A stretch of 57,551 nt of DNA from positions 1-57,551 of the forward strand of contig PNOJ01000003.1 in assembly GCA_013824755.1 (NCBI GenBank), read 5' to 3'. The position numbers were made by a program, and so were the translations under genes. Below, piece after piece: positions 24,356-40,302 of the stretch. This stretch comes from Gemmatimonas sp. (GTDB lineage: Bacteria; Krumholzibacteriota; Krumholzibacteriia; LZORAL124-64-63). Each line of letters begins with the position of its first letter. Position 1 is the stretch's first letter. The notes under the pieces were generated by a model. The model had not been told where the DNA came from and made no database searches. It was given only the letters and a program-made list of their open reading frames with translations.

Positions 24356-24590
24356 TTCTGGCTCGAAGATTGTCCCTCGCCAAGCGCTTGATGTGGTGCG
24401 ACTTGGACATGCAGAGGCCACGTTGACAGGGGACGCGCGCCGGGCACCTCGTGTGCCCGGCGCGCTTGACTTGCGGCCTCCTGCGCCCTCCTGGCGCAGG
24501 AGGCCTCCAGACACCCCTGTCAACGTGGCCTCTGCATGTCCAAGTCGAACAGCATCATGGCGTTGAGCAGGGACAATCTTCAGGCCAGAA
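24356..24590. repeat. Palindromic element copy 1 (34-bp perfect arms, 81-nt two-hairpin core, imperfect outer arms)
   Basis: Arms 24399-24432 and 24514-24547 are exact reverse complements. Inner 13-bp hairpins lie at 24435-24465 and 24475-24505. Homologous to 40146-40302. Confidence 0.92.
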
Positions 24591-24654
24591 CTGTGGCGAT
24601 CTGGTATCCTCGTGCGCGGATCGGACGCGGTACCCGCAATGCGGAGGTTTTTCG

Positions 24655-25764
24655 TTGCGCGACAGCGTGTTGCACAGGCGGTACCGCCTCGGTGGCGTGA
24701 CGACCGACTACCGGTGCGCGCCGACGGGGTTGGCTTCGCTGGCGGAACGGCTGGGGGGGCGGCCGGCCGTGGCGGTCGTGGACCGGGCGGTGGTGCGGCT
24801 GCACGCGGAACGGCTGGCGGCGGTGCTGCGGGATGGGGACGGGGCTCCCCTGCCTCGGCTGGTCGTGGCCGGCGGCGAAGCCGCCAAGACCGTGGCGAAC
24901 CTCGAGCGCGCCTGGGAGTGGCTGGCCGCACGACGGCTGACGCGCGACGGCGTGGTCGTCGGGGTGGGCGGCGGCGCGGTGCTGGACCTCGCCGGTTTCG
25001 CGGCGGCGACCTGGCAGCGCGGCGTGCGTTTCGTCGCCGCGCCCACGACGCTGCTGGCGGCGGTGGACGCCGGGCTGGGCGGCAAGACCGCCGTCGACCT
25101 GGGGGCGTTGAAGAACCCCGTCGGCGCCTTCCATCCCGCCACGGACGTGCTGGTCGAGACGGACCTGCTCGGCACGCTGACGCGACGCGACTGGCGCTGC
25201 GGGCTGGCCGAGACGGTCAAGGCCGCGGTGATCGCCGCCGCGCCCCTGTTCCGCGACCTGGAGGCGCGGGCGCCCGATCTCGCGGGCCTGCTGGCCCACG
25301 GCCGCGCCGACCGGGTCGTGCCCGGAATCGCGGACCTGCCCTGGACCTCGTGGATCGACGGCGCGGTGCGGGTGAAGGGCCGGCTGGTCGCGCTCGACTT
25401 CCGCGAGGCCGGACCGCGACGGGCGCTGAATCTCGGGCACACGCTCGGGCACGCGCTGGAACTGCAGCTGGGCCTGGCGCACGGCGAGGCCGTGGCGCTG
25501 GGCCTGGCGGCGGCCGCGCGCCTGGCCGCGGCGCGCGGGACCTGCCCGCGACGGGACGCCGACCGCATCGTCGCGTTGCTGGCGGCCTGCGGGCTGGCGG
25601 TGGCGGCGACCCCGCCGCCGCGGCGCGCGACCGCCGCCCTGGTCGCCGGCGACAAGAAGGCGCGCGGCGGCGAGGTGCGCTGGGTGCTGCCGCTGCGGAT
25701 CGGCGCGGTGGACATCGACGCGCGCGTCGGGTTGGACGACATGCTGGCGGCGCTCTCGGGCTAG
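24655..25764 (+). CDS. aroB: 3-dehydroquinate synthase family protein
   Basis: Motifs GGGAVLDLAGFAA, PTTLLAAVDA..GGKT, KNPVGAF, LNLGHTLGHALE and HGEAVA. GGAGG RBS before TTG 24655. Confidence 0.85.
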   Translation: MRDSVLHRRYRLGGVTTDYRCAPTGLASLAERLGGRPAVAVVDRAVVRLHAERLAAVLRDGDGAPLPRLVVAGGEAAKTVANLERAWEWLAARRLTRDGVVVGVGGGAVLDLAGFAAATWQRGVRFVAAPTTLLAAVDAGLGGKTAVDLGALKNPVGAFHPATDVLVETDLLGTLTRRDWRCGLAETVKAAVIAAAPLFRDLEARAPDLAGLLAHGRADRVVPGIADLPWTSWIDGAVRVKGRLVALDFREAGPRRALNLGHTLGHALELQLGLAHGEAVALGLAAAARLAAARGTCPRRDADRIVALLAACGLAVAATPPPRRATAALVAGDKKARGGEVRWVLPLRIGAVDIDARVGLDDMLAALSG

Positions 25765-25788
25765 GTTCGTCCGGCACCGGACGCACGG

Positions 25789-25813
25789 AGGGCCACCCCG
25801 CTGGGGTGGCCCT
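25789..25813. terminator. Bidirectional terminator
   Basis: AGGGCCACCCC-gct-GGGGTGGCCCT followed by TT, between convergent genes. Confidence 0.65.
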
Positions 25814-25837
25814 TTCGCGTACCCGCGGTGCGCCGCG

Positions 25838-28800
25838 CTACTTCGCCAGCACCAGCTTGGCCGAGCGTTGCTCCCCGCCCGTCGCGACGCGCAGCAGGTA
25901 GACGCCGGCGGCGGCGGCGCCGCCGTCCTCGTCGCGCCCGTCCCAGACCGCCTCGTGCCGGCCGGCGGCCAGGTCCGCGTCCGCGAGGGTGCGCACGCTG
26001 CGGCCGCGCATGTCGTAGATCCGCACCTCGACGCGCCCGGCGCGGGGCACGTCGAAGCGGATCGTGGTGCGGGGGTTGAACGGGTTGGGGACCACGTCCG
26101 CGATGGCCAGCGCGCGCGGCGCGTCGCCGGCGGCGGTGGCGCCCGTCGTCACCGTCGCCGAGTACCCGCCGACGTGGCCGTCCTGGTCCACCGCCACCAC
26201 CACGAAGTGGCCGTCGGACTGCGCCGACGCGAAGGCGTGGCCGGGGTGCGCGACGACGCCGGCCACGTGGGCGGCGTCCGGCTGCGTCGCCGCGTCCGGC
26301 AAGCGGTAGACGACGTAGTGGTCGACGTCCGGCTCGGCGTTGGGCGCCCAGTCGAGCGCGACGCCCGTGAGCGCCACCTGGGTCAGGCTGAGCTGGGCGA
26401 CCGCCGCCGGCGCGACCGGCGTGCAGCCGGGCCCGCCGTACGCGCCGATGTCGGCCCGCGAGCCGTCGGGATCGAGGCAGGCGGGATCGGGATCGCCGCG
26501 GTCCAGGCAGGGCGAGTGCAGGGCCAGCGCGTAGTCCCCGGCCGCAGCGGCGCAGAAGCCCGGCTCGGCCAGGATGTCGTGGGCGCCGCCCGTCAGGCCC
26601 ACATAGTCGCCGCCCGGGTTGTTCCACAGGACGTTGTGGTCGCCGACGAAGCTGGCGGTGCTGCCCGCCAGGCCGCCGTGCGCGTTGTCGGCGACGACGC
26701 AGTTGCGCAGGACCGTCGAACCGACGCCGGTCAGGAACACGCAGCCGAAGCCGGTGCCCGTGCTGTCGAGCAGCAGCGTGTTCTCGATCCGGACGACGGG
26801 CGACGAGTCCGCCGCCAGGGTCGCGCCGAGCACGGCGGCGGCGTTGCCCGTGAAGACGGCGTTGCGCACGTCGAGATCGGCTCCCGCGACGTTCACCGCG
26901 CCGCCGCGGTCGATCCGGGCCGAGTTGTCGTCGTAGAGGCCGCCCTCGACGACGAGGCTGCCGCCCACGACGTGGAAGGCGCCGCCCTTGGCGTCCGCGC
27001 GGTTGCCGACGGCGGCGACGTCCCGCGCGACCACCGTCGAGCCGCTCGCCGACAGGGCCGCTCCCGCCGCGCAGCGGCGGTTGCCCGTGAAGGTCTCGCC
27101 GATCAGGTCCAGCCGGCTGTCGAGGGCGTAGACGCCCGCGCCCTCGTGCCCGGCGACGCTGTCCATGCAGGCGTTCTGCAGGTACTGGTTGCCGGTCAGC
27201 ACCGCGCCGTCGGCGTTGATCAGGGCCACGGCGCCGCCCAGGTCGGCCCGGTTGCCCTGGAACACGCAACCCTCGATGCGGGGCGCGCCGTTGACGACGA
27301 TGATGGCGCCGCCGGCCCCGTCGCCGTTGAAGGGGTTGGCCGTGTTGTTCGTGAACACGCAGTCCCGGATGGTGGGCGAGGAACCGTTGATGTAGATGGC
27401 CCCGCCGTGGCGGCCGAAGAACGGGACGCTGCTGATCCCGCCGACGCAGTCGTGGAACTCGAAGCCGACGACGCCGGCGTAGCCGTCGAGGCCGCCGACG
27501 AAGCCCATCGCGCTGTCGATCGACTGCAGACGCGTCGCGCCCGGCGAGGGGTTGCGCGCGGTGAAGGCCGGGTTCCAGCCGCCGATGATGGTGGTCGGCG
27601 TGGTGACGGCCACGCGCTCGGCGTAGTCGCCGGCGGCGACGAGCACGGTGTCGCGGCCGGTGCAGGCGACCAGCGCGGCGGCCAGGCTGCGGGCGGCCGT
27701 GGCGACCGACTCGTAGGGCGCGACGTCGCCGCCGGTCGGCGAGACGTAGCGCGTGCGGTGGCCGAGCAGGCGCATCCGGTCCGGGGAGACGCCGAAACCC
27801 CGCCGCGTGTCGCCCAGCGGGACGACGCAGAACTTGAGCAGCGTCGTGGAATGGTTCGGCAGGGTCCACAGGTAGTGGCCGGTGTTGGGCACGTCGTCCG
27901 CGATCTTGGTGTCGAGGTAGCCGTCGAGGGACGCCCAGATGTCCACCGTGGCCGCGGCGGCGCCGCTCGTGGTCCAGGCGATGTCGACCGTCTCGCCCGC
28001 CAGGTAGTCGCGGTCGTCCAGGGGGCCGAGCACCGTGACGCTCGTCGGCGGCACCAGCAGGTCGATCTGGGTCGTCGAGGAACCGATCAGCGACACCCCG
28101 TACTTGATGGTGAAGTACCCGCCCTCACCGAAGCTGGGGCCCCAGGAGTTCTTGCAGATCCAGCCGCCGGTGCCGCCGCAGGCCCGGTCGTCCCAGCCGA
28201 CGATCAGGATCAGGTGGTTCGTGTAGGGACCGACGTTGTCGGTGTAGCAGCCGGTGCCGTAGCTCGGGAAGGGCTCGTCGGCGTTGAAGGCCGAGCAGAC
28301 GGGGCCGTCGAGCAGGGCGGTCTTGATCTGCGTCACGTTGTTCGAAACGTAGTGCCAACTCGTCACGAAGCCGAAGGGCAGGTGGGCGGACTGGGTGCAG
28401 GTGCTGACGGTGCCCTCGGTGTACGGGATGTCCTCCTCGTGGACGGCTCCGTAGGTCATCGCCACGTTGTAGACGGCCGAGGCCCAGCCGCCGTCGCAGT
28501 CGGCGCCGTACGAGTTGCAGAGGATCATCTGCTGTTCCGACAGGTTCAGGTCCTGGCCGTAGAAGATCTTGAGATGCGACTCGATCTGCCCGATCGCGGC
28601 GAAGGCCCAGCACGAGCCGCAGCCGCCCTGGTCCTTGACCGAGGTCAGGCCGTCCAGGCTCACCCAGCTGAAGTTCGACGGCAGGTCGACCTTGTCCGTC
28701 GGGTAGATCTTCAGGTGGTCGAGATACTCGCGCTGGTAGTCCGGCGGCAGTTCGAAGCCGTACAGGTTGGCGCGACGCTCCGGCGTCAGGCTGTCGGTGA

Positions 28801-28936
28801 ACGCCGTCGTCGACTCCCAGGTCACGCCGGACTGGGCGAAGGCCGCCCCGGCGGCGGCGGCGACCAGCAGGCAGGCGAGGGCGGCCGAGCGGGTCCTCGT
28901 GATCACGGAAGCACAAAAAAGTTTACGCGGACGCAT
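25838..28936 (-). CDS. Secreted papain-like (C1A) cysteine protease with beta-helix repeats and C-terminal FlgD-Ig-like domain
   Basis: Catalytic motifs QGGCGSCWAF, NH.ILIVGW and KNSWG. GGAI/F..N.A repeats, then PNPFNP...WDGRD...AGVY at the C-terminus. Confidence 0.9.
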   Translation of the reverse strand: MRPRKLFCASVITRTRSAALACLLVAAAAGAAFAQSGVTWESTTAFTDSLTPERRANLYGFELPPDYQREYLDHLKIYPTDKVDLPSNFSWVSLDGLTSVKDQGGCGSCWAFAAIGQIESHLKIFYGQDLNLSEQQMILCNSYGADCDGGWASAVYNVAMTYGAVHEEDIPYTEGTVSTCTQSAHLPFGFVTSWHYVSNNVTQIKTALLDGPVCSAFNADEPFPSYGTGCYTDNVGPYTNHLILIVGWDDRACGGTGGWICKNSWGPSFGEGGYFTIKYGVSLIGSSTTQIDLLVPPTSVTVLGPLDDRDYLAGETVDIAWTTSGAAAATVDIWASLDGYLDTKIADDVPNTGHYLWTLPNHSTTLLKFCVVPLGDTRRGFGVSPDRMRLLGHRTRYVSPTGGDVAPYESVATAARSLAAALVACTGRDTVLVAAGDYAERVAVTTPTTIIGGWNPAFTARNPSPGATRLQSIDSAMGFVGGLDGYAGVVGFEFHDCVGGISSVPFFGRHGGAIYINGSSPTIRDCVFTNNTANPFNGDGAGGAIIVVNGAPRIEGCVFQGNRADLGGAVALINADGAVLTGNQYLQNACMDSVAGHEGAGVYALDSRLDLIGETFTGNRRCAAGAALSASGSTVVARDVAAVGNRADAKGGAFHVVGGSLVVEGGLYDDNSARIDRGGAVNVAGADLDVRNAVFTGNAAAVLGATLAADSSPVVRIENTLLLDSTGTGFGCVFLTGVGSTVLRNCVVADNAHGGLAGSTASFVGDHNVLWNNPGGDYVGLTGGAHDILAEPGFCAAAAGDYALALHSPCLDRGDPDPACLDPDGSRADIGAYGGPGCTPVAPAAVAQLSLTQVALTGVALDWAPNAEPDVDHYVVYRLPDAATQPDAAHVAGVVAHPGHAFASAQSDGHFVVVAVDQDGHVGGYSATVTTGATAAGDAPRALAIADVVPNPFNPRTTIRFDVPRAGRVEVRIYDMRGRSVRTLADADLAAGRHEAVWDGRDEDGGAAAAGVYLLRVATGGEQRSAKLVLAK

Positions 28937-29090
28937 CGGCTGCCTTTCGTCCGAACCCGGTGGATGGTGCGGGATGTCGCGGCGGCGGCGATCGGACGCC
29001 ACGGCTCCATGATACCACGCCGACCGGCCGCGGGGCAAACCCGCCCTGCGCCCATCCCCGCTCGCGACATGCAACGTGTTTCGCGACAAC

Positions 29091-31094
29091 TCAATACAGG
29101 CCGACGGGATCGACGTCCAGGGTGACGTCGACGGCGGTGTCGGCGGCCAGGCGACGCCCGCGGTCGGCGAGCCAGGCCCGCTGGGCGTTGGTGGTGGGCC
29201 CCTTGACCAGCAGCTGCCAGCGGACGCGGTTCTGGAGCCTGGCGAACACCGCCGGCGCCGGCCCCAGCACTTCCAGCGCGGGCGGCGCCAGGTGGGCCCG
29301 CAGCAGCTCGCCGAAGCGGTGGGCCGCGTCCTCGACGTCGGCGGGGCGGCGGGCCGCGAGGCCCACGCGCAGCATGCGCCGGGCCGGCGGGTAGCCCGCG
29401 GCCTCGCGCTGCGGCAGCTCCGCCGCGGCGAAGGCCGCGAAGTCGTGGCGCGACGCGGCCAGGATCACCGGGTGGTCGGGCTGCCAGGTCTGGAAGAGCA
29501 CGACGCCGGGGCTCTCGCGGCCCGCGCGGCCGGCGACCTGGGTCAGCAGCTGGAAGACCCGCTCGTGCGCCCGGAAGTCGGGCAGCGTCAGCCCGTCGTC
29601 GGCCGCCAGGACGCCGACCAGGTCGACGCCGGCGAAGTGGTGCCCCTTGGCCACCATCTGGGTGCCGACCAGGATGTCGGCGCCGCGCGCGGCGAAGGTC
29701 GACAGGATCTCGCGGTGGCTGCCGCGGGCGCGGGTGGTGTCCTGGTCGAGTCGCAGGACGCGCGCCTCCGGGAAGTGCGCCGCCAGCGCCAGCTCGAGAC
29801 GCTCGGTCCCGGAACCCCCGGGCAGGAAGGCCGGGCCGCCGCAGTCCGGGCAGGTGTCCGGTTCGCGCCGCGCGAAGCCGCAGTAGTGGCACAGCAGCTG
29901 GCGCGGGCGCAGGTGCACCGTCAGCGCGATGTCGCAGTGCGGGCAGGCGACCGGCACGCCGCAGGACGTGCACTGCAGGACCCGGGCGAAGCCGCGGCGG
30001 TTGTAGTAGAGGATCGCCTGGCGGCCCCCGGCCAGGCACGACTCGAGCCGGGCCAGCAGCGCGTTCGAGAAGCCGTCGGACGCCGGCCCGCCGCGCATGT
30101 CGACGATCTCGACGACCGGCATCTCCCCGATCGGGCGGTCGCCGAGCAGGATCTCCCGGTAGCGGCCCTCGCGCGCGTTGCGCACCGATTCGAGGTCCGG
30201 CGTCGCGGACCCCAGCACCACGCAGGCCCCGGCCTCGCGGGCCCGCACCAGCGCCGCGTGGCGCGCGTGGTAGCGCGGCTTCTCCTCCTGCTTGTAGCTG
30301 GCGTCGTGCTCCTCGTCGACGATCACCGCGCCGAGGTCGCGCAGCGGCGTGAACAGGGCCGAGCGCGGCCCGAGCACGACCTTCAGCTCGCCCGCCGCCG
30401 CCGCCTCGTGCACGCGGCAGCGCTCGCCCGCGGACAGGCCGCTGTGCACCGTGGCCACGCGGTCGCCGAAGCGCGCCGCCACGCGCGCCTCGGTCTGCGG
30501 GGTCAAGGCGATCTCCGGCAGCAGGTACAGGGCGCTGCGGCCGCGGGCCAGGGCCTCGGCGATCACCCGCAGGTAGACCTCGGTCTTGCCGCTGCCGGTG
30601 ACGCCGCGCAGCAGCAGCGCCCCGTAGCTGCGCGCCTCCAGGCGATCGACCGCCCAGGCGACGGCGCGCTCCTGGTCGGGCGTCAGGCGCACGTCGGCGG
30701 CGTCGGCGATGGGGTAGGCCGCCGCGGCGCGGCGCGGCCGGGCCTTCGTGCCGGGGGCCGGCGGGTGGAACAGGGGCACGAGTTCCCCGGTCGGCAGCGC
30801 GTAGTAGCCGGCCATCCAGTCCAGCAGACGCCGTCGGTCGTCCTCGATCCGGTAGGCCGCGGGGAAGCGGTCGCGCAAGTGACGCAGGCGGTGACCGTCG
30901 ATCTCCGTGACGTCGGCGGCCGCCTCGCGCACGCCGACGACCAGGCCCGTCACGGTCCGCCGGCCCAGCGGCGCCGAGACCAGGTCGCCGGGCCGCACCG
31001 GCGGCGCGGGCCAATCGTCCGGGACGCGGTAGGTGAAGGTCATGTCCAGAGGCACCGGCAGGGCGACCTCGGCCAGCGTCGCGACGGCGGCCAT
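29091..31094 (-). CDS. priA: Primosomal protein N' (replication restart helicase)
   Basis: Motifs GVTGSGKTEVY, DEEHD and NRRG, four CxxC pairs, and GTQMVAKG. Confidence 0.95.
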   Translation of the reverse strand: MAAVATLAEVALPVPLDMTFTYRVPDDWPAPPVRPGDLVSAPLGRRTVTGLVVGVREAAADVTEIDGHRLRHLRDRFPAAYRIEDDRRRLLDWMAGYYALPTGELVPLFHPPAPGTKARPRRAAAAYPIADAADVRLTPDQERAVAWAVDRLEARSYGALLLRGVTGSGKTEVYLRVIAEALARGRSALYLLPEIALTPQTEARVAARFGDRVATVHSGLSAGERCRVHEAAAAGELKVVLGPRSALFTPLRDLGAVIVDEEHDASYKQEEKPRYHARHAALVRAREAGACVVLGSATPDLESVRNAREGRYREILLGDRPIGEMPVVEIVDMRGGPASDGFSNALLARLESCLAGGRQAILYYNRRGFARVLQCTSCGVPVACPHCDIALTVHLRPRQLLCHYCGFARREPDTCPDCGGPAFLPGGSGTERLELALAAHFPEARVLRLDQDTTRARGSHREILSTFAARGADILVGTQMVAKGHHFAGVDLVGVLAADDGLTLPDFRAHERVFQLLTQVAGRAGRESPGVVLFQTWQPDHPVILAASRHDFAAFAAAELPQREAAGYPPARRMLRVGLAARRPADVEDAAHRFGELLRAHLAPPALEVLGPAPAVFARLQNRVRWQLLVKGPTTNAQRAWLADRGRRLAADTAVDVTLDVDPVGLY

Positions 31095-31237
31095 GCCTGG
31101 TTCCTCCGGGGAAGCGGGACGTCGGCGGGCAGCGTGCGTCGGGAGTCTACACGGCGCGGCGGCGCGCGTCCACGGCGACGTCCGGCCCGGGACTCGGCCC
31201 GGGCCGGCGTGCGGCGGCGGCGGCGGGTCGCGGGCGG

Positions 31238-31612: not shown

Positions 31613-31656
31613 GATGGTGCCTCCGTCCCTCGGGTGTCGTTCGCGGTGCGTGCCGT

Positions 31657-34294
31657 TCAGGTCGCGGAGCGGTCGCCGGCGGCGGCGCCGACGAGCTCCC
31701 CCTCCTCGCTCTCGAGGCCGACGTCAGCCGCGGCTGCCGGCGGCGGCGGCGGCAGGGCCAGGTTGCGCGCGTGCTGCACCTCGCCGATGCGCTCGGCGTG
31801 GCGCTGCGACTCGTCCAGGAAGGTCGCCAGGGAGCGCGGGCAGAACTGGCTGCCGGCGCGCTGCTGCATCTCGGCGAGCGCCTGCTCCAGGTTCACGGCC
31901 CGGCGGTAGGGACGGCCCTGGAGCATCGCGGTGAGGCTGTCCGCCAGCATCAGCAGGCGCGCGCCCAGGGGGATGTCCTCGCCGGTCAGCCCCCGCGGGT
32001 AACCCGAACCGTCGAAATGCTCGTGGTGGTGCAGGACGATGTCGTGCACCTCGCCGGGAGCGTCCAGCGACGAGATCAGCTGCAGGCTCAGGTGGACGTG
32101 CTGCTGCAGGATCTCCCACTCCTCGGGCTCGAGCGGCGGCCCCTTGTAGATGATGTCGTCGGGGATGCCGGTCAGGCCCAGGTCGTAGGTCTGCAGCGCG
32201 AAGGCCAGGCTCATCAGCTCGGGCTCGGAGAGTCCCAAGCGCCGGGCGGTCGATGCAGATGTCGTGGCAGAGCTCCGCGAGCTCGTCGTGGCGGGCGCGG
32301 CGGATGGCCACGCTCTTGCGCAGGGCCTGCGCGAGATCGCCGAACTCGCGGTTGCTGCGCTGGTGGACCACGACGCGCTCCAGGACGTGCCCCAGCCGCG
32401 CCGCGATCGCCTGCAGCAGGAGGCTGTCGCACACGCCGAACGGGCGGCCGTCGAGCCGGCTGGCGACGTTCACCACGCCCACCACGCGCCCGTCGCGCAT
32501 CACCGGGGCGCTCAGCAGGCTCCCGGTCTGAGGGAGGTCCCCGGTGCGATCCGGCGCGGCGCGCACCCCGGCGGCCGCGGCTTCGCCCAGCGCCGGCTCC
32601 CCGGTCGCCCAGACGCGTCCGGCGATGCCCTCGCCGCGCGCGAGGCGCATGTCCTGCACCACGCGGTCCTCGAGGCCCATGGCCGCCTCGACGACCAGGT
32701 GCTCCCCGCCCGCGTCGGGCAGCAACAGCGCGACCATCCGCGCCCGCAGCAGCTCGCCGACCCAGTGGATCAGCCGCTCCGCGAACTCGGGCACGTCGTT
32801 GAAGACCGTGAGGCGGCCGTTGTTCTGGCCCCGGCGGACGATCTCGTCCCGGCGCGGCAGCAGGGCGTTGAAGCGCACGCCCTGGGGCTGCACCCGTTCG
32901 CCCCAGATGCGGCCGCCGTGACGCGTGACGATGTCGCGGCAGATGGCCAGCCCGATGCCCTGGCCGCCGTGCTCGCGCGTGCTGGAGCCGTCGACCTGGT
33001 AGAAGCGGTCGAAGATGTAGGTCAGCTTGTTGTCGGGGACGCCGATGCCGTTGTCCTCGACCACGATGCGCACCGACGAGACGCCGTCGACCACCGACAG
33101 GTGCACCTTCCCCCCGCTCGGGGTGAACTTGAAGGCGTTGTCCAGCAGGTGGCGGATCAGCTGGCGCACGAGGTCGGCGTCGACGCCGAGCAGGATCTCC
33201 TCGCGGTCGACGTGCATGGTGAACGCGATGCGCTTGGTCTCGGCCTGTGTGCGCGCGGAGCCCTCGATGCCGCGCACCAGCGCCACGAGGTCCGTCAGGT
33301 GGCGGTTGAAGGTGACCTGCTCGCGTTCCATGCGCTCGAGATCCAGGAGGTTGTTGACGATGCCCGTGAGCTTCTCGCTCTCGGACTGGATGACGCGCAG
33401 GAACTCGCCCTGGGCCGCGTCGTCCATGCGCTCGCGCCCGTGCACCAGGGCCTCGCTGTAGGCCTTGATCGAGGTCAGCGGGGTGCGCAGCTCGTGGCTG
33501 ACGTTGGCGACGAAGTTGTTCTTCAGCTCGTTGTGGTAGCGCAGGCGGTCCGAGGAGCGCGTCAGCTCCTGGTTCTGCCGGTGCAGCCGCGAGTACAGCT
33601 CGGCCGAGGCGATGGCGGTGGCGGCCTGCTGGGCGAACAGCTCCAGCATCTGGATGGTCTGCAGACCGGGAAGCTTGTGATCGACCGGATCGTCGACGCT
33701 CAGGTAGCCCCGGATCTCCCCCTCGGGAGAATTCAGGGGGATGATCAGCGCATCGCGCTCGTCCCACTCGCCCTCGGCGCGCTTCTCCTGCGCCTGCGTG
33801 TACGCGTCGGCCAGGGCCTGTTCCGCACCCTCGATCGTGTGGCGGATGAGGTAGGAATTGGAGATCAGGAACTGCGGCAGCGCCATCTTGCGGAACCCGG
33901 TCAGCGTCATCGGGCTGTTGCGCAGGTACTCGATGCCCTCCTCGTCGATGCCGGCGAAGGATTTCGCCTCGAAGACCTTGTCCGAGACGTTGTAGATGCG
34001 CAACAGGACCATGCGGAAGCCCAGCGATTCCCGCACCGACTGCGTGATCTCGTTGAGCAGGTGCTCGGAATCGCGGAAGGCGTGGATGCGCGCCGAGATG
34101 GCCAGCAGGCTTTCCAGGCCGCGCGCGCGTTCCTGGCGATCCAGGAGATCGCGCGAGCGCTGGCGCACGCGCCAGATCTGCCAGACCAGTCCCGCGGCCA
34201 GCGCCAGGATCGCCAAGGCGTACGGCACCGGACCGCCGGGCGCCGCCGCCACGCCGGCCGGGATCGCACCGAGGTTCGCCAGGAACAGCGTCAT
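31657..34294 (-). pseudogene. TM-GAF-histidine kinase-GAF-HD-GYP fusion, frameshifted at about 32251
   Basis: ORF 31724-34294 carries SHELRTPL, a HATPase domain and GAF domains up to CHDICI. The reading TARRLGLSEPEL...HHEHFDGSGYP continues in another frame to stop 31657. Could be an assembly error. Confidence 0.75.
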
Positions 34295-34692
34295 GTCACG
34301 TCCTTCCCTGCATGGACCCGACGCGCGGCCAGGGCGTCGGCGGCCTGGCCGACCAGACGGCTCATCACGAAGGGTTTCTCGAGGTACAGGTCCGCCCCCG
34401 CCGCCAGCATCTCCGCCCGGGCGGCGCCGTCGTGGCGCGCCGAGAGCGCCACGATCGCCGTGCGGTCGTGGCCGGGATTGCGCCGGATCAGGCGCGTCGC
34501 GTCGATGCCGTCGAGCTTGGGCATCATCACGTCCATCACGATCACGTCGGGGCGGAAGGCGGCCACCTGGTTCAGTCCCTCGATGCCGTTGCGGGCCACG
34601 ACCGCCTGCCAGCCCTCCTGCACGAAGGCGCGCGACAACAGGCCCGCGAGGTGGGGCTCGTCCTCCACGATCAGCACGCGCACGTCGATCAT
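34291..34692 (-). CDS. Single-domain response regulator
   Basis: Motifs LIVEDE, MDVMMP and KPF. Four-base overlaps with both neighbours. Confidence 0.9.
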   Translation of the reverse strand: MIDVRVLIVEDEPHLAGLLSRAFVQEGWQAVVARNGIEGLNQVAAFRPDVIVMDVMMPKLDGIDATRLIRRNPGHDRTAIVALSARHDGAARAEMLAAGADLYLEKPFVMSRLVGQAADALAARRVHAGKDVT

Positions 34693-35705
34693 GGCTGCTC
34701 CGGACGCCGGGCCGAAGGGGCCTCGCCCTCCTCGCGGCCGTCCGACGGCGGCGAGGTCTGCGCCGCGGCCGCTTCGTCCGTGAAGCGCCGCTCGTGGATG
34801 ATCTGGCTGCCGGGCAGGGATTTCCCGTACTTCTTCAGCTCCGCCGCCACGGCGTTGAGCCGGCCCACGTGGCCGAAGTTCCCCTGCTGTTCGACGACGA
34901 CCGCGACGGTCAGCGACACCGGCGGGAACCGCCGCAGCCGTCCCGTGCGGTCGGGCAGCTCGATGTAGCCGCGGCGGCGGTCCTCGAGCTCGTACTGCCC
35001 GAGGATGTTCCGGTCGAACTCCGCGACGATGCGTTCGGCGAGGCCGTCGGCGTCCTGCGGGCGCGACACGGCGATGAAGTCATCGCCGCCGACGTGGCCC
35101 AGGAAGGCGTCGTCGCAGGCCAGGACCTCGCTCGCGAGCAGGTCGGCCAGCATCGTCAGGACCGCGTCGCCCTTCACGTAGCCGTAGTGGTCGTTGAAGA
35201 CCTTGAAATGATCGAGGTCGAAGTAGAGGAACCCGAAGGCCTGGCCCGCCTCGAGCCGCCGGTTCAGCTCCCGCGCGATGGCGCGGTTGCCGGGCAGGCC
35301 CGTCAGCGGGTTGGCGTCGCGCTGGCTGCGGCTCAGCTGCAGCAGGTTGCGCACGCGCAGCACCAGCTCCTCCGGCACGAACGGCTTGCACAGGTAGTCG
35401 TTGGCCCCCTGCTCGAGGCCACGCACCTTCTGCGGCGTCTCGCCCTTGGCGGTCAGCATGATCACGGGCAGGTGGTGGGTCCGGAACCGGCTGCGCAGCT
35501 CGCGCAGCACGTCGAACCCGTCCAGGCCCGGCATCATGACGTCCAGCAGGACCAGGTCGGGCAGCTCCTGCTGCAGGCAGGACAAGGCCTGCCGCCCGTC
35601 CTCGGCCAGTTCCACCCGGAAGCCGCCCTGTTCGAGCACGTGCTTCAGGATCGTCCGCAGGTGCTGGTCGTCGTCGACGACCAGGATCGTCTCGGTTTCA
35701 CGCAT
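34689..35705 (-). CDS. Response regulator-diguanylate cyclase (REC-GGDEF, GGDDF variant)
   Basis: REC domain, NPLTGLPGN, DLDHFKVFNDHYGYVKGD and GHVGGDDF. Confidence 0.9.
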   Translation of the reverse strand: MRETETILVVDDDQHLRTILKHVLEQGGFRVELAEDGRQALSCLQQELPDLVLLDVMMPGLDGFDVLRELRSRFRTHHLPVIMLTAKGETPQKVRGLEQGANDYLCKPFVPEELVLRVRNLLQLSRSQRDANPLTGLPGNRAIARELNRRLEAGQAFGFLYFDLDHFKVFNDHYGYVKGDAVLTMLADLLASEVLACDDAFLGHVGGDDFIAVSRPQDADGLAERIVAEFDRNILGQYELEDRRRGYIELPDRTGRLRRFPPVSLTVAVVVEQQGNFGHVGRLNAVAAELKKYGKSLPGSQIIHERRFTDEAAAAQTSPPSDGREEGEAPSARRPEQP

Positions 35706-35766
35706 CGGCACCATCCGTGCAAATCGCATCGGGAACACTGATTACAGGCAGAGCCGACGAGCCTGT

Positions 35767-35782
35767 CGCAAGGGTCGTGCCA
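35767..35782 (-). promoter_or_regulatory. Sigma54 promoter of the c-di-GMP signalling operon
   Basis: Minus strand reads TGGCACG-accc-TTGCG, about 60 bp upstream of the GGDEF gene, in an intergenic position. Confidence 0.72.
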
Positions 35783-35834
35783 TCATGGGGACGTCCGCGA
35801 CGCGGGCGGGAACAATGGGGCGGGAGGAGGCAGG

Positions 35835-36845
35835 TCAGCGCCAGGAGGCGAGGGGGGCGCGCGCAAACCCATCCAAATCAAGGGGATCCGAAAATCCCGC
35901 CGCCAGGCGGGCGTGGCCGGCGCAGGCGATCATGGCCGCGTTGTCGGTGCAGTAGACGCGCTCGGGGGGGCGGAATGCGAATCCGCCTGCCGCGGCCTCC
36001 CGGGCGACACGGTCGCGCAGCCACGAATTGGCCGCCACGCCGCCGGCCAGGTAGACGCCCCGCACACGGTGTTCGCGGGCGGCCTGGAACAGGCGCTGGA
36101 CGAGCACGTCGACGACCGCCTCGCGCAGGGCCCGGCAGATATCGGCCACGGTCTGGTCGTCAAGCGGCCGGGGCAGCGATTCGACCAGCACGCGGACGGC
36201 CGTCTTCAGGCCGCTGAAGCTGAACACCAGGCGCGGGTCGCGGGTCAGGGGCCGCGGCAGTTCGAAGCGGCCGCCCCGGCCGCGCTCGGCCAGGCGGTCG
36301 ATGACCGGGCCGCCCGGGTACGGCAGGCCCATCAGTTGGGCCGTCTTGTCGAAGCACTCCCCCGCGGCGTCGTCCAGCGTCCAGCCCAGACGCCGGTAGC
36401 GGCCCACCTCGCTCATCAGCACGACCTCGGTGTGGCCGCCCGAGACCACCAGCACGGTCGCGGGCAGGTCCATCGTGCCGGACAGCAGGTTGGCCAGGAT
36501 GTGACCCTCGATGTGGTGGACCCCGACCAGCGGCTTGCGCGCCGACCAGCAGAGGGCCTTGGCGGTGGACAGCCCCACCAGCAGGGCGCCGATCAGACCG
36601 GGACCGGCCGTGACCGCCACGCCGTCCAGGTCCGCCGGGGCGAGCCGCCGTCGCTCCAGCAGCACCTCGATCAGAGGCAGCAGGTTGACCAGGTGCGCGC
36701 GCGAGGCCAGCTCCGGGACCACGCCGCCGAAGTGGTCGTGCAGGTCGACCTGGCTCGAGACGAGGTTCTCCAGCACGCCCAGCTCGGAGTCGTAGAGCGC
36801 GACGCTGGTGTCGTCGCAGGAGGTTTCGATGCCCAGGACCTTCAT
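35835..36845 (-). CDS. tsaD: tRNA N6-adenosine threonylcarbamoyltransferase
   Basis: Motifs GIETSCDDT, GGVVPELASRAH, HHIEGH, DDAAGE.FDK and CTDNAAMI. Confidence 0.96.
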   Translation of the reverse strand: MKVLGIETSCDDTSVALYDSELGVLENLVSSQVDLHDHFGGVVPELASRAHLVNLLPLIEVLLERRRLAPADLDGVAVTAGPGLIGALLVGLSTAKALCWSARKPLVGVHHIEGHILANLLSGTMDLPATVLVVSGGHTEVVLMSEVGRYRRLGWTLDDAAGECFDKTAQLMGLPYPGGPVIDRLAERGRGGRFELPRPLTRDPRLVFSFSGLKTAVRVLVESLPRPLDDQTVADICRALREAVVDVLVQRLFQAAREHRVRGVYLAGGVAANSWLRDRVAREAAAGGFAFRPPERVYCTDNAAMIACAGHARLAAGFSDPLDLDGFARAPLASWR

Positions 36846-38413
36846 GCTCCCGCCCCTGCCTCCGTCAAGTCGTCCAGTTCGGCCAGGGCGGCGGGCAGAC
36901 GGTCGGCGACCTCGCGGGCCAGCACGGCGCGGCGGGAACCACCATCGGCCGCCAGCTCCCCGGCGCGGCCGTGCAGCCAGCAACCCAGCAACGCGGCGTC
37001 GAGCGGTTCGCAGCCCTGACCCAGCAGGCCGCCGATCAAGCCGGTCAACACGTCGCCGGTGCCGCCGTGGGCCAGTGCGTCGTGGCCGGTGGGGTTGAAC
37101 CAGAGCGTGCCGTCCGGGGCGGCCACCAGCGTCGGGGATCCCTTGGCGACCAGCACCACGCCCCAGCGCGCGGCGAGTTCGGGGACGAGGTCGAGCCGGC
37201 GCGCGGCCAGCTCGGCCGGGTCGAGGCCGGCCAGCCGGGCCAGCTCGCCGGCGTGCGGCGTGACGACCGCCGGACCGGCGCCGCCGCGCGGCGGCAGGCC
37301 GAGACGCGCGAAGGCGGACAAGGCGTCGGCGTCGATCACCGCCGGCAGCGATGATGCGGCCAGCAGTTCCACCACGAAGCGGTCGGTGTCGGGGTCGTCG
37401 CCGAGACCAGGGCCCACGGCCAGGGCCCGCTGGCGGCGCAGCAGCGCGGCCAGGTCGTCGCCGGTCACGGGCAGCAGCCCCCCGCGCGGGCCGGTGGGCA
37501 GGGCGACCACGGGCGCTTCGGGAACGAAGGACGTGGCCGCGGCCGCGTGCTCCCGAGGCAGGGCGAGGGTGACCAGGCCGGCGCCGGAGCGCAGCGCGCC
37601 CAGCGCCGCGAGCAGCGCCGCACCGCCGAAGCGGGCCGAACCGGCGAGCACCAGCACGGTCCCGGCCCCGTACTTGTGCGTGTCGGTGGGGCGCGGCGGC
37701 AGCAGTTCGGCGTAGTCCTGGGGCAGCAGCCAGTGGCGGGGGCCGGTGTGGCGGGCGCAGGCCTCGTCATCGAACCCGATGTCCACGACCGACAGCGCGC
37801 CGGTGTGGTCACGCCCCGGCGGCAGCAGCAGGCCCAGCTTGGGCAGGCCCACGGTGATGGTGGCGTCGGCCCGCACGGCGACCGGATCGACGGCGCCGTC
37901 GTCCCCGCCCACGCCCGAAGGCAGGTCCAGGCTCGCGATCGGCGCGCCGCCGTCGTTCAGCGCCGCGAACAGCGCGGCGTGGTCGGGCTTCAGCGGCAGC
38001 GTGACGCCCGTGCCGAAGACCGCGTCGATCACCAGGTCCGACTCCGCGCACAGGTCGCCGGCCCGGTCGGCCCAGGCGTCGGGCGGGATGGTCTCGACGG
38101 CCACGCCGGGGGGCAGGCGGTCGAGGTTCGCGCGGGCGTCGACGGCGAGGTCGTCCGCGGCGGCCAGCAGCAGCACCCGCACCTCAAAGCCCAGGTTCTC
38201 CAGCAGGCGCGCCACGACCAGCCCGTCGCCGCCGTTGTTCCCCTTGCCGCAGACCACGCCGACCTGGGCCGGCGGCGCCAGCGCGGGGAACTCCCGCAGC
38301 AGCTGCCAGGTCATCTCGCGGCCGGCGCGTTCCATGAGCTCGCGGCCGGGCACGCCGCCAGCGATCGTCTCGCGGTCGATGGCCGCCATGCCGGCGCTCG
38401 TGGCCACGCGCAT
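36842..38413 (-). CDS. nnr: Bifunctional NAD(P)H-hydrate epimerase/dehydratase
   Basis: Motifs LMERAG, GKGNNGGDG, DLPSG, IDADAL, TPHAGE and GGTGDVL. Confidence 0.94.
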   Translation of the reverse strand: MRVATSAGMAAIDRETIAGGVPGRELMERAGREMTWQLLREFPALAPPAQVGVVCGKGNNGGDGLVVARLLENLGFEVRVLLLAAADDLAVDARANLDRLPPGVAVETIPPDAWADRAGDLCAESDLVIDAVFGTGVTLPLKPDHAALFAALNDGGAPIASLDLPSGVGGDDGAVDPVAVRADATITVGLPKLGLLLPPGRDHTGALSVVDIGFDDEACARHTGPRHWLLPQDYAELLPPRPTDTHKYGAGTVLVLAGSARFGGAALLAALGALRSGAGLVTLALPREHAAAATSFVPEAPVVALPTGPRGGLLPVTGDDLAALLRRQRALAVGPGLGDDPDTDRFVVELLAASSLPAVIDADALSAFARLGLPPRGGAGPAVVTPHAGELARLAGLDPAELAARRLDLVPELAARWGVVLVAKGSPTLVAAPDGTLWFNPTGHDALAHGGTGDVLTGLIGGLLGQGCEPLDAALLGCWLHGRAGELAADGGSRRAVLAREVADRLPAALAELDDLTEAGAGA

Positions 38414-38414
38414 C

Positions 38415-39152
38415 TCAGGCCTCCCCGGCCGGCCGCTCGAGCCGCTCGAGCACGTCGAGCAGCTGCAGCAGGTCGTCGATCACGAAGTGGGCGCCCGAGT
38501 CCGTGGTCCGCGGGCGGTCCGGCGAACCGTAGGTGTCCCCGTAGCGCGCGTAGACCGTGTGCAGGCCGGCGACCAGGCCGCCGACGATGTCGCGCTCCGG
38601 CCAGTCCCCGACCATGACCGCCTGGCCCGGCGCGACGCCGAGCCGCTCGAGCGCCATGCGGAAGGGCACGGGGTCGGGTTTGCGCGCGCCGGTGTCGTCG
38701 TGGGTCAGCACGACGTCGAACACGTGCTGCAGGCCGAGGTAGCAGAGGCGCAGCCAGGCCTCGAAGCGAGGCGCGTCGCTGACCACGGCCAGCTTGTAGC
38801 CGTCCTTGACCAGCCGGTAGACCACGCGCTGGACGTGCGGGTACGGCACGAGCGAGGCCTCGCGGGCGCGGCGGTAGGCCACCACCGCCGGGGCCAGCAC
38901 GTGATCGTCCACGCGCCCCGTCGCCTCGGTCAGGAAGCGGTTGAAGACGCGCTGGTGCTCGATGCCGACCTCGTCGTAGATGGCGAAGATGCGGTCGTAG
39001 ACCAGTTGGGGGTCCATCACCAGGCCGGCGTCGATCATGGCGTCGGCCGCCGCCCGGATGGCGCCCCGCTTCGCCTTCATGAAGTCGGTCAGCGTGTTGT
39101 CCAGGTCGAAGACCACCGCCCGGATCGTCCGTCCCTCGCGCAGTTCCGTCAT
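38415..39152 (-). CDS. HAD-superfamily hydrolase
   Basis: Motifs FDLDNTL, KPDP and MVGD..RDI.G. Confidence 0.9.
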   Translation of the reverse strand: MTELREGRTIRAVVFDLDNTLTDFMKAKRGAIRAAADAMIDAGLVMDPQLVYDRIFAIYDEVGIEHQRVFNRFLTEATGRVDDHVLAPAVVAYRRAREASLVPYPHVQRVVYRLVKDGYKLAVVSDAPRFEAWLRLCYLGLQHVFDVVLTHDDTGARKPDPVPFRMALERLGVAPGQAVMVGDWPERDIVGGLVAGLHTVYARYGDTYGSPDRPRTTDSGAHFVIDDLLQLLDVLERLERPAGEA

Positions 39153-39254
39153 GTCGCCCCTTTCGCTCCGCAGCCGTCCGCTGCATATTAACCGTTCGGG
39201 GAACCCGCGCCAAGGCGGGCCTGACGGCACGCTCCCCAGGACGGAAGGACCGCC

Positions 39255-40097
39255 TTGCATCCCGACACCCCCACGCCCGAACCCGGCTCCGGCCCGCCGG
39301 AGCGGCCGCTTCCCGGCTACGGCGGCTGGCACGGCTGGTCCACGCGACGGCTGGTCGTGCTGGCGTTCTCCCTGATGGCGTCCAACCTCGCCGCGCAGGT
39401 CCTCGTCTTCCAGCTGACCGACAACCTCTTCGCCGCCGCCGGCGCCGGCGCTGCGCTGACGATCCTGTTCGCCGCTGCCGCCACCCAGTCGCGCGGCGCC
39501 CCGCCGCAGGCCGCCTTCGACCTGTCCCGCCTGCCGGCGGCCGAGCACGTCCTGTGCGTGGCCATGGCCCTGGGCTCGCTGCTGCCCACCTCGCTGTTGG
39601 CCGGCCTGTCCTCGCGCCTGCACCCGCCGGGCCCCGAGTGGATCGCGATGTACAACAGCCACCTGCCCGACAGCGTCGCCGGCATCGCCCTGGCGGCCGT
39701 GGCGGTGGTGGTGGCCGCGCCCCTGGCCGAGGAGATGGTCTTCCGCGGTCTCGTCTACCGCCTCGGCCGGCGCGCGTGGGGACCGTGGCCGGCGGCCGTC
39801 GTCTCGGCGCTCGTCTTCGGCCTGGTCCACGGCGAGCCCTGGTACCTGTTCGGGCTGCTGGCGCTCGGCCTGCTGCTGGCGGCGGTCTACGAGCTGACCG
39901 GTTCGCTCTGGTCCTCCGTGATCGTCCACGCGGTCCACAACGCGGTGGCGCTGGCTCTGCTGGTGGCGCAGGGCGGCCTGGTCGCGGAGGAACCGCCGCC
40001 CACGCTGCTGGACTGGACCGGGGCCGCCGCCTCGCTCGCCGCTGTCGTCGGTATCGTCGCCCTGCTGCGACGCCGTGCCGCCGCGCGCCGAGCCTGA
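39255..40097 (+). CDS. CPBP (Abi/CAAX) family intramembrane protease
   Basis: Motifs EEMVFRG, FGLVH and HAVHN, with multiple TM helices. Confidence 0.88.
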   Translation: MHPDTPTPEPGSGPPERPLPGYGGWHGWSTRRLVVLAFSLMASNLAAQVLVFQLTDNLFAAAGAGAALTILFAAAATQSRGAPPQAAFDLSRLPAAEHVLCVAMALGSLLPTSLLAGLSSRLHPPGPEWIAMYNSHLPDSVAGIALAAVAVVVAAPLAEEMVFRGLVYRLGRRAWGPWPAAVVSALVFGLVHGEPWYLFGLLALGLLLAAVYELTGSLWSSVIVHAVHNAVALALLVAQGGLVAEEPPPTLLDWTGAAASLAAVVGIVALLRRRAAARRA

Positions 40098-40145
40098 ACC
40101 CTCGGTTATAACCACGACGGTAACCCTGCCCATATCCACGCTGCT

Positions 40146-40302
40146 GTTGCGACTTGGATCCACACATCTTGTGGTGACAGGGGTGTCCTGCAGGCCTTGG
40201 AGCCAGGATGGCGGAAAGGCCGGAAGGCCAAGCGAGTCGGGCACAGGAAGTGCCCGACGAGCGCCCCCTGTCACCACAAGATGTGTGGATCCAAGTCGCA
40301 AC
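40146..40302. repeat. Palindromic element copy 2 (38-bp perfect arms, 81-nt core), inverted relative to copy 1
   Basis: Arms 40146-40183 and 40265-40302 are exact reverse complements. The reverse complement of the core aligns with the copy 1 core. Confidence 0.92.

What the first reader, a model, noticed from the sequence alone, without database searches (positions are those of the whole stretch)
24399..40302. Family of fixed-geometry palindromic elements with a fully co-varying 16-bp segment
Seen in sequence: two intergenic elements 15.7 kb apart share the layout CGACTTGGA-N16-TGACAGGGG-[81 nt]-CCCCTGTCA-N16'-TCCAAGTCG. N16 is CATGCAGAGGCCACGT in copy 1 and TCCACACATCTTGTGG in copy 2. The two N16 segments are essentially unrelated, yet each is perfectly complemented in its own opposite arm. 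Both cores are exactly 81 nt (24433-24513 and 40184-40264) and align in opposite orientation (GGGCAC-N5-GTGCCC...GCTTG...GGCCT...GCC-NTCCT-GGC...AGGCCT...ACACCCC). Inference: wholesale replacement of a fixed-length segment with perfect pairing retained implies strong structural selection or arm-to-arm copying. Candidates are a structured ncRNA with a programmable segment, a non-autonomous REPIN/MITE-like element, or a recombinase substrate. No cognate enzyme is present in the window.
Basis: partly seen in the sequence, partly recalled or inferred. Interest (0 to 1): 0.85.

Follow-up and report, generated by a model that had tools for sequence, protein, structure and literature searches.

The report
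Mobile palindromic repeat with self-copying arms
The two elements are copies of a small non-coding mobile repeat found in an uncultured bacterial lineage, and their two arms stay perfectly complementary because one arm is repeatedly copied from the other at the DNA level, not because they carry a programmable RNA guide.

Summary
Both elements have 34-bp perfect arms and 81-nt cores at the stated coordinates. They belong to a family of about 38 copies in this 2.46-Mb genome. The family occurs in 6 of 6 sister species and 24 of 36 genomes of the family searched, and Rfam has no match.

Each copy is a long hairpin capped by a conserved two-hairpin junction. The arms differ between copies along their whole length, not only in N16, yet pair by Watson-Crick rules: 96.3% of cells against 72.4% in shuffles.

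The element is mobile. Element 2 is missing from three sister species, whose empty site reads CTAG. The arms travel with the element.

At orthologous sites, 69 arm differences are mirrored in both arms and 14 are one-sided. The core is flipped between species at several loci. Wobble pairs are not enriched. This fits replication template switching or intra-element conversion, which homogenises arms and inverts spacers.

No mobilising enzyme was found, and no targets for the arm sequences. The programmable-RNA reading is not supported. Interest is moderate.

The parts
24354..24591 (.). Element 1, whole palindromic repeat of about 238 bp. It lies in the divergent intergenic region between a POR-gamma gene (23664-24245, minus strand) and a 3-dehydroquinate synthase gene.
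   Evidence: Outer arms are homologous to the subfamily consensus GGTTCTGGCC...GGCCAGAACC. It folds as one DNA hairpin of -119.7 kcal/mol, z = -17.5. Gene assignments are from Pfam.
24399..24432 (+). Element 1, left inner arm: 34 bp, perfectly complementary to 24514-24547.
24433..24513 (+). Element 1, conserved 81-nt core in model orientation. Hairpin P2 is 24435-24465 (13-bp stem, loop CTCGT). Hairpin P3 is 24475-24505 (13-bp stem, loop CTCCT).
24514..24547 (+). Element 1, right inner arm.
40104..40323 (.). Element 2, whole repeat of about 220 bp with a truncated right outer arm. It lies between the convergent stop codons of an Rce1-like gene (39255-40097, plus strand) and an ORF at 40322-41782 (minus strand). 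40101-40104 (CTCG) is the decayed CTAG target.
   Evidence: The stretch is absent from G004, G006 and G001, where the site reads ...CGGCG CTAG GTCTTC.... It is present in G002 with CTAG intact. Gene assignments.
40150..40183 (+). Element 2, left inner arm: 34 bp, perfectly complementary to 40265-40298.
40184..40264 (-). Element 2, conserved 81-nt core, in reverse orientation relative to element 1.
40265..40298 (+). Element 2, right inner arm.

Best explanation
Both elements are copies of an undescribed family of small non-coding mobile palindromic repeats, MITE-like and about 125-260 bp long. The family is found in an uncultured high-GC lineage of the FCB group.

Anatomy. Each copy is a long hairpin. 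An apical three-way junction is formed by an 81-nt core with two 13-bp hairpins, whose loops read NTC(C/G)TG. Below it lies a stem that is typically perfect for exactly 34 bp. Then comes a conserved asymmetric internal loop. In the CGACTTGGA subfamily, imperfect outer arms follow and end in GGTTCTGGCC.

Mobility (shown for one site, inferred for the family). The whole unit, arms included, inserts at TA, often within CTAG. In this 72% GC genome such sites lie mostly at stop codons, which explains why copies sit between gene ends.

Arm complementarity (shown). The arms drift in sequence at about the rate of the core and of the mostly coding flanks. A DNA-level process copies one arm from the other in situ and so keeps them identical.

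Mechanism of copying (inferred). The most likely process is replication template switching within the hairpin, or intra-element conversion. The same process flips the core between the arms. The co-varying N16 is therefore a by-product of arm homogenisation in diverging lineages, not a programmed segment.

Core (inferred). The conserved structure and loop sequences point to sequence-specific recognition by an unidentified protein. That protein could serve mobilisation or a host function.
For: Family and spread. nhmmer finds 38 hits in the own genome. The covariance model R1 finds 36-50 hits, capped, in each of 6 of 6 sister species. It finds hits in 24 of 36 genomes of the family and in 1 of 24 genomes of other families of the class.

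Structure. 58 pairs are predicted and 43 have changes on both sides. 96.3% of cells pair against 72.4% in shuffles. 414 cells have changes on both sides against 105 in shuffles. Partners slid by 1-3 columns pair in at most 43% of cells.

Geometry. In 131 distinct copies the perfect run outside the core model peaks sharply at 26 nt (39 of 131), which makes a 34-bp stem. In the 59 copies with at most one arm mismatch, left and right agree at 0.97 or more at positions 1-34. Agreement drops to 0.19-0.27 at four of the five positions just outside, namely -4, -3, -2 and 0.

Mobility. Element 2 (233 bp) is absent from G004, G006 and G001, leaving a clean CTAG. G002 is filled like G000. G003 carries a different 165-bp palindromic element at the same CTAG, flanked by CTAG on both sides. 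TA lies directly outside 8 of 45 subfamily termini against a genome TA frequency of 0.9%, p = 7e-9.

In-situ copying. In 29 orthologous pairs, 69 arm differences are mirrored in both arms and 14 are one-sided. Independent double hits would give about 2 by my arithmetic. In the orthologous pair L134 and L180, the outer loop has been converted to the left form on both arms in one species and to the right form in the other. At the C47 locus, a 9-nt block differs among five species and is mirrored in each.

Core inversion. The core is flipped with the same arms and flanks in G006 against G001b, in G000 against four species at the C47 locus, and in 3 of 29 pairs.

DNA level rather than RNA level. 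In 72 intact copies there are 2401 Watson-Crick pairs, 8 G.T, 14 A.C and 25 transversion-type mismatches.

Rates. Arm divergence is 7.7%, core 6.1% and flanks 6.8% per site.

Literature. Template switching between inverted-repeat arms is described as homogenising arms and inverting spacers (PMC8604942, search listing only). It is also described as creating and maintaining perfect hairpin stems by multi-base compensatory changes (PMC8794818, abstract and introduction) and as correcting imperfect inverted repeats in bacteria (PMC5941160, abstract).
Against: No autonomous partner or transposase with matching ends was found. DDE_3 is in 1 of 7 genus genomes and DDE_Tnp_1 in 1 of 7. Y1_Tnp and DDE_Tnp_4 are in 0 of 5. 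IS110-type genes are in 2 of 5 and are not next to a repeat. These are draft MAGs and only five families were tried.

The terminal sequences differ between subfamilies while the core is conserved, which is the reverse of a classical MITE.

Only one clean empty site was found. The copy there has a damaged right end, so it does not show its own target duplication.

The two other loci tested, C96 and C47, are filled in all genus genomes that gave a full-length match. Much of the family is therefore old and vertically inherited.

The orthologous pairs are not phylogenetically independent, and rows were dropped before counting (see Tried and rejected).

Template switching cannot be told apart from RecA-dependent conversion or mismatch repair of extruded hairpins with these data.

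The conserved internal loop at 34 bp and the conserved loop sequences show that selection also acts, so neutral copying is not the whole story.
Confidence: 0.78

Rival explanations
1. The repeat is a host-used RNA or DNA module rather than purely selfish DNA. Its conserved core is a binding platform for a protein. The most concrete version concerns transcripts of the strand opposite to the model. On these, the two apical hairpins display AGGAU or AGGAG in 5-nt loops. GGA in a hairpin loop, present twice, is the kind of site a CsrA dimer binds. The dispersed copies near gene ends would then tie those transcripts to CsrA control or titrate CsrA. This rival is compatible with the mobile origin.
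For: The core architecture and the loop motif NTC(C/G)TG are kept across genera while every stem co-varies. TCCTGG in the P3 loop is invariant in 31 of 31 own-genome copies. CsrA genes are present in 4 of 5 genus genomes. CsrA recognises GGA in hairpin loops and binds two such stem-loops in the hag leader (PMC13443453, passages). Thirteen of 25 classifiable copies lie between convergent gene ends, so they could be read into from both sides.
Against: About half of the own-genome copies carry CTCGT in the P2 loop, which reads ACGAG on the other strand and has no GGA. The core flips at orthologous sites, which would switch the module between genes. Transcription is not shown: only contigs from RNA libraries reach into element 1. 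The resemblance to the CsrA site is my reading of the loops and was not scored. CsrA was not found in G000 itself, which is 84% complete.
Confidence: 0.12
2. It is a structured non-coding RNA whose stem carries a programmable, copy-specific guide segment.
For: Covariation is very strong and the geometry is fixed. Each lineage has its own arm sequence.
Against: Covariation is Watson-Crick only, with no wobble excess on either strand. The longest off-element matches of 30 arms (12-14 nt) do not exceed those of shuffled arms (12-16 nt). Phage and plasmid collections give no hit. Variation covers the whole arm and accumulates at about the rate of the core and flanks. A guide locked in a perfect 34-bp duplex would need processing, and no machinery for that was seen. 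Rfam has no match.
Confidence: 0.04
3. It is an inverton, that is, a switch flipped by a dedicated site-specific recombinase acting on the 34-bp inverted repeats. The core would act as an orientation-dependent signal such as a promoter.
For: The core is found in both orientations between identical arms at orthologous loci. The core contains TTGACT, which resembles a -35 box; this is my reading, and no promoter scan was run.
Against: The arm sequences differ between copies, so a single recombinase could not recognise them all. No recombinase gene was seen beside the copies examined, though recombinase families were not searched genome-wide. There are dozens of copies, and they behave as insertions. 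Inversion alone does not homogenise arms.
Confidence: 0.04
4. It is a REPIN-type doublet mobilised by a RAYT (Y1 HUH) transposase.
For: It is a palindromic, intergenic, high-copy repeat whose pairing is conserved while its sequence is not.
Against: Y1_Tnp (PF01797) has no match in 0 of 5 genus genomes, while the same search rings in 6 of 14 control genomes. The unit is a single long hairpin with a three-way junction, not two short REPs. It inserts at TA/CTAG.
Confidence: 0.02

Closest known systems
Bacterial MITEs that fold into long stem-loops and sit at TA: Correia/NEMIS, ERIC/IRU and RUP (review PMC2229807, passages; review PMC10969869, passages)
   Same: Small and non-coding, with terminal inverted repeats. 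TA at the termini. Filled and empty sites between relatives. Mostly intergenic, and predicted to form a long hairpin.
   Different: Those families are listed with 4-24 contiguous Watson-Crick pairs and mispaired stems, and most are A+T-rich. This one is 72% GC. It has a 34-bp perfect stem and up to about 85-bp arms, with a conserved apical three-way junction. Its termini are not conserved across subfamilies while its centre is. No partner insertion sequence was found.
Template-switch (quasipalindrome) homogenisation of inverted repeats with spacer inversion (PMC8604942, listing only; PMC8794818, abstract and introduction; PMC5941160, abstract)
   Same: Multi-base changes are mirrored in the opposite arm. 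Imperfect arms become perfect. The spacer inverts. Pairing is Watson-Crick only.
   Different: The published cases concern short repeats or RNA-gene stems. Here the process would act on 34-bp arms separated by an 81-nt spacer that is itself folded, in dozens of copies per genome. The mechanism is inferred here, not demonstrated.
REPINs and REP sequences with RAYT/TnpA-REP (PMC8266576, search listing only; remainder recalled)
   Same: High-copy intergenic palindromes in which structure is conserved more than sequence.
   Different: No Y1 transposase in 0 of 5 genus genomes. The geometry and the target differ.
CIR repeats of Caulobacter and Brucella (PMC2229807, passage)
   Same: A repeat whose predicted structure has two hairpin arms joined by a linker and exposes a short conserved motif in a loop.
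   Different: CIR has no terminal pairing and no target duplication is recorded for it. There is no sequence relation, and the lineage is different.

Membership tests
MITE (non-autonomous DNA transposon) | Small (under about 300 bp) and non-coding | tested here: met
   125-260 bp. The two window copies lie between called genes.
MITE (non-autonomous DNA transposon) | Terminal inverted repeats | tested here: met
   34-bp perfect arms plus outer arms.
MITE (non-autonomous DNA transposon) | Filled and empty sites between relatives | tested here: met
   Site 2 is empty in G001, G004 and G006, and filled in G000 and G002. Only this one polymorphic site was found among 4 loci examined.
MITE (non-autonomous DNA transposon) | Target-site duplication | tested here: inconclusive
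   The empty site reads CTAG. The filled copy keeps CTAG on the left only. TA lies outside 8 of 45 termini, p = 7e-9. TA is at both ends in copies L152 and L178. TA and CTAG duplication cannot be told apart.
MITE (non-autonomous DNA transposon) | A related autonomous insertion sequence with the same ends | tested here: inconclusive
   None found. Five transposase families were searched in 5-7 draft genomes. No outer arm was found away from a core, except at contig ends.
REPIN / REP-RAYT | A RAYT (Y1_Tnp) gene in the genome | tested here: not met
   0 of 5 genus genomes; controls ring in 6 of 14.
Any Rfam RNA family | A match to a curated covariance model | tested here: not met
   No match at gathering score in the window. 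Only two chance-level matches, at E about 0.7, on four copies.
Inverton | A segment between inverted repeats found in both orientations | tested here: met
   Seen between species. Orientation within a population was not tested.
Inverton | A dedicated site-specific recombinase and shared recognition sequence in the repeats | tested here: not met
   Arm sequences are unrelated between copies. Recombinase families were not searched genome-wide.
CsrA-binding RNA (CsrB/RsmZ-like or leader site) | GGA in hairpin loops, two or more sites | tested here: inconclusive
   On the strand opposite to the model, P3 reads CCAGGA in 31 of 31 copies. P2 has GGA only in the TCCT variants. Binding and expression were not tested.

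The most novel reading that the evidence does not exclude
The conserved apical junction is not junk. It is a portable two-hairpin protein-binding module carried on a self-repairing palindromic stem. Read on one strand, the loops are twin GGA loops of the kind CsrA binds. Read on the other strand, they are CCUCC-type loops resembling the anti-Shine-Dalgarno sequence (that resemblance is recalled, not tested). The host lineage would have spread the module to dozens of gene ends as a post-transcriptional control or titration network, while DNA-level arm copying keeps each copy foldable without selection on each base pair.
Probability: 0.1. Interest if true: 0.75.

Novelty: new variant of a known kind. 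Interest (0 to 1): 0.42.

Why it matters
Strong covariation is usually read as proof of a functional RNA. Here is a family with 43 of 58 co-varying pairs whose pairing is best explained by DNA-level arm copying. Screens for structured RNA should keep that in mind.

The family also offers dozens of natural replicates per genome, across at least seven species. In these, arm homogenisation and spacer inversion can be dated on orthologous loci, which is rare material for studying template switching in nature.

Two points stay open and are worth a specialist's look. The centre, not the ends, is the conserved part. And no mobilising enzyme is visible.

Tried and rejected
1. Rfam. The window at gathering score and four copies at E up to 1 gave nothing usable.

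2. Targets for the arms. The longest off-element matches of 30 own-genome arms are 12-14 nt, or none at 12 nt or longer. Shuffled arms give 12-16 nt. Phage and plasmid collections gave no match for element 1.

3. Arms derived from the target by inverted duplication. Rejected, because the empty site lacks both arms.

4. The 149-bp unit as an insert into a separate outer palindrome. Outer arms without a core turned up only at contig ends, so there is no support.

5. Hypermutation of N16. Per-site divergence in 19 orthologous pairs is 12-13% in arm positions 1-26, 9.6% in the core and 7.2% in the mostly coding flanks. It is spread over the arm, so no hot block is needed.

6. Transposase partner. 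The DDE_3 fragment in G002 has no matching end. IS110 genes in G001 and G004 have no repeat beside them.

7. Expression. No run held more than 0.35 of the sampled words. Contigs from three RNA libraries and one DNA run were laid. Pieces from RNA libraries reach into element 1 (X15: 24156-24441 and 24532-24789) and break inside it. Contigs cannot show transcription, and DNA may be present in such libraries, so I take no conclusion.

8. Orientation bias of the core relative to transcription in tandem gene contexts. My count is 5 of 8 in one sense, which is too few to say anything.

9. Rows dropped before counts.
- One search used 131 copies with 130-nt flanks and a model match of at least 89 of 96 positions.
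- One search kept 29 pairs with both flanks matched, different sources, 149-nt length, arms paired at 32 or more of 34 positions, and core difference of 14 or less.
- The unfiltered table had 102 scored pairs, with 379 mirrored and 492 one-sided differences. That table includes mispaired neighbouring copies and short-arm copies, whose flanks are counted as arm.
- One search kept 19 pairs from groups with one copy per source.
- One search kept the 72 of 131 copies with 4 or fewer arm mismatches.

10. Supplementary files of papers were not consulted.


Full report
OBSERVATION. CGACTTGGA-N16-TGACAGGGG occurs four times in the window, as two inverted pairs, and none of 100 shuffles gave a match. 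The arms are 34 bp and perfect, and the cores are 81 nt. The two cores align in reverse orientation at 80% identity. Rfam has no match in the window or on four copies at a permissive threshold.

A FAMILY, AND LARGER UNITS. The window is contig C3 of a 2.46-Mb draft genome in 103 contigs. It is 84% complete and 72% GC. Two rounds of nhmmer with the core found 38 hits, several of them at contig ends. In nearly every copy the conserved core is flanked by a perfectly complementary inverted repeat whose sequence differs from copy to copy. CGACTTGGA marks just one subfamily. In that subfamily similarity runs on outwards to about 260 bp, ending GGTTCTGGCC on the left and GGCCAGAACC on the right. Element 1 therefore spans about 24354-24591 and folds as one DNA hairpin of -119.7 kcal/mol, z = -17.5.

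STRUCTURE. An alignment of 31 own-genome copies (A1) gives a consensus of 58 pairs. These form a 34-bp stem, two 13-bp hairpins (P2 and P3) and short junction helices, and 43 pairs have changes on both sides. Counted against controls, 96.3% of cells pair against 72.4% in shuffles. There are 414 double-change cells against 105 in shuffles. Partners slid by 1-3 columns pair in at most 43% of cells. One-sided (wobble) changes are rare.

In 131 distinct copies from this genome and from named relatives, the perfect run outside the core model peaks at exactly 26 nt (39 of 131), which makes a 34-bp stem. A second, broad class has runs of 13-18 nt. In the 59 copies with at most one arm mismatch, left and right agree at 0.97 or more at positions 1-34. 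Agreement is only 0.19-0.27 at four of the five positions just outside. So a conserved asymmetric internal loop marks the boundary.

DISTRIBUTION. The covariance model R1 finds the family in 6 of 6 other species of the genus, with 36-50 capped hits each. It finds it in 24 of 36 genomes of the family and in 1 of 24 genomes of other families of the class. Named relatives are uncultured MAGs labelled 'bacterium', 'Candidatus Latescibacterota' or 'Fibrobacter sp.'. Other genera keep the same architecture with unrelated arms and co-varying P2 and P3 stems. Both hairpin loops keep the motif NTC(C/G)TG.

IT IS MOBILE, AND THE ARMS TRAVEL WITH IT. At site 2, G004, G006 and G001 lack 233 bp and read ...CGGCG CTAG GTCTTC.... 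That CTAG holds the overlapping stop codons of two convergent genes. G002 is filled like G000 and still has CTAG on the left. G003 carries a different 165-bp palindromic element at the same CTAG, flanked by CTAG on both sides. The empty sites contain neither arm, so the arms are not copied from the target.

TA makes up 0.9% of dinucleotides in this genome. Yet it lies directly outside 8 of 45 recognisable subfamily termini, p = 7e-9. Short-arm copies often abut a TAG stop codon. A crude gene call places 13 of 25 classifiable copies between convergent genes, 8 between tandem genes and 4 between divergent genes.

Two other loci tested, C96 and C47, are filled in every genus genome that gave a full-length match. 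At site 1 every species of the genus has an element, with differing arms. Much of the family is therefore old.

WHY THE ARMS CO-VARY. Flanking sequence defined 35 orthologous groups. A filtered set of 29 orthologous pairs has 69 arm positions that differ between species and are mirrored in both arms, and 14 that are one-sided. At the observed divergence of 7.7% per site, independent double hits would give about 2 by my arithmetic. Selection on two separate mutations cannot explain 69, so one arm must be copied from the other in place.

Three observations support this directly. The pair C34 and L096 has four mirrored changes. At the C47 locus a 9-nt block reads GTGCGTTGT, ACGGATCGT or ATGCGCGGC in different species, mirrored each time. 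In the orthologous pair L134 and L180 the usual outer asymmetry has become the left form on both arms in one species and the right form on both arms in the other.

The core is also flipped between identical arms and flanks. This is seen in G006 against G001b, in G000 against four species at the C47 locus, and in 3 of the 29 pairs.

Mismatches in 72 intact copies number 8 G.T, 14 A.C and 25 transversion-type, against 2401 Watson-Crick pairs. Wobble pairs are favoured on neither strand, which speaks against RNA-level selection as the maintaining force.

Arms, core and flanks diverge at similar rates: 7.7%, 6.1% and 6.8%, and 12-13%, 9.6% and 7.2% in a second set. N16 is therefore not hypermutating. 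It only looks like a cassette because these two copies share the bordering 9-mers by descent.

The pairs are not independent, and the filters are listed under Tried and rejected.

MECHANISM. Homogenised arms together with an inverted spacer are the stated signature of DNA-polymerase template switching between inverted-repeat arms (PMC8604942, search listing only). The same process is proposed to create and maintain perfect stems through multi-base compensatory changes (PMC8794818, abstract and introduction). It is also proposed to correct imperfect inverted repeats in bacteria (PMC5941160, abstract). I take this as the most likely mechanism. RecA-dependent conversion between the arms, or mismatch repair of an extruded hairpin, would leave similar traces and cannot be excluded here. 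What is shown is that copying and flipping happen in situ. Which enzyme system does it is inferred.

WHAT REMAINS ODD. The conserved part is the centre, not the ends. Termini differ between subfamilies, whereas a trans-acting transposase would be expected to need conserved ends.

No partner enzyme appeared. DDE_3 is in 1 of 7 genus genomes and DDE_Tnp_1 in 1 of 7. Y1_Tnp and DDE_Tnp_4 are in 0 of 5. IS110-type genes are in 2 of 5 and are not beside a repeat.

The loop sequences of both hairpins and the internal loop at 34 bp are conserved although copying could erase or invert them. So some sequence-specific recognition is under selection. On the strand opposite to the model the loops read AGGAU or AGGAG. 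That is GGA in hairpin loops, the kind of site CsrA binds (PMC13443453, passages), and CsrA genes are present in 4 of 5 genus genomes. This is only a lead. About half the own-genome copies lack GGA in P2, and transcription is not shown.

COMPARISON AND VERDICT. The element works like the bacterial MITEs that fold into long hairpins and sit at TA (PMC2229807; PMC10969869). It meets the tests for size, inverted repeats and filled/empty sites. The target duplication and the autonomous partner remain open. It is not a REPIN, since no RAYT was found, and it is not in Rfam.

The arm-to-arm copying and MITE options are supported. The programmable-RNA option is not.

Noticed in passing
G000:C60:16288-18224 (L046 2289-4225): One copy of the repeat is interrupted by a group II intron a few nucleotides 3' of hairpin P2. 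The intron starts with GTGCG. It carries an RT/maturase ORF at L046:2737-4092 (RVT_1 1e-38, GIIM 6e-17) and Rfam group II domains. Insertion just after a GC-rich hairpin recalls the class C introns that home after terminator-like stem-loops (recalled, not tested).
   Followed up: partly
L196 (G003:C3, about 12123-12291): A different 165-bp palindromic element occupies the same CTAG that element 2 uses. It has arms of about 55 bp, a single apical hairpin with loop CCCTCCT, and CTAG on both sides. This lineage therefore holds at least two repeat families that target CTAG.
   Followed up: no
G001:C16:4424-6332 and G001:C8:35228-37078: G001 holds two versions of the site 1 region. One resembles G004 and the other resembles G006, which suggests two strains or species in that bin.
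   Followed up: no
G000:C66:632-959; also L093, L126, L142, L145, L160 and G004:C4:264252-264652: Pairs of repeats lie about 100-250 bp apart in opposite core orientation at several loci.
   Followed up: no
window 24433-24513 and all copies: Hairpin P2 reads CACCTCCTG in many copies, and P3 reads CCTCCTGG. The first resembles the anti-Shine-Dalgarno end of 16S rRNA, and its complement is AGGAGGTG. This resemblance is recalled and was not tested.
   Followed up: no
window 25838-29089 (-): A large ORF carries a papain-type peptidase C1 domain, a beta-helix, an FlgD-Ig domain and a weak type IX secretion sorting tail.
   Followed up: no
window 40092-40100: GCCTGAACC, just left of the former CTAG of element 2, resembles the right terminus of the repeat (GGCCAGAACC). 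This hints at an older, mostly deleted copy at the same site.
   Followed up: no
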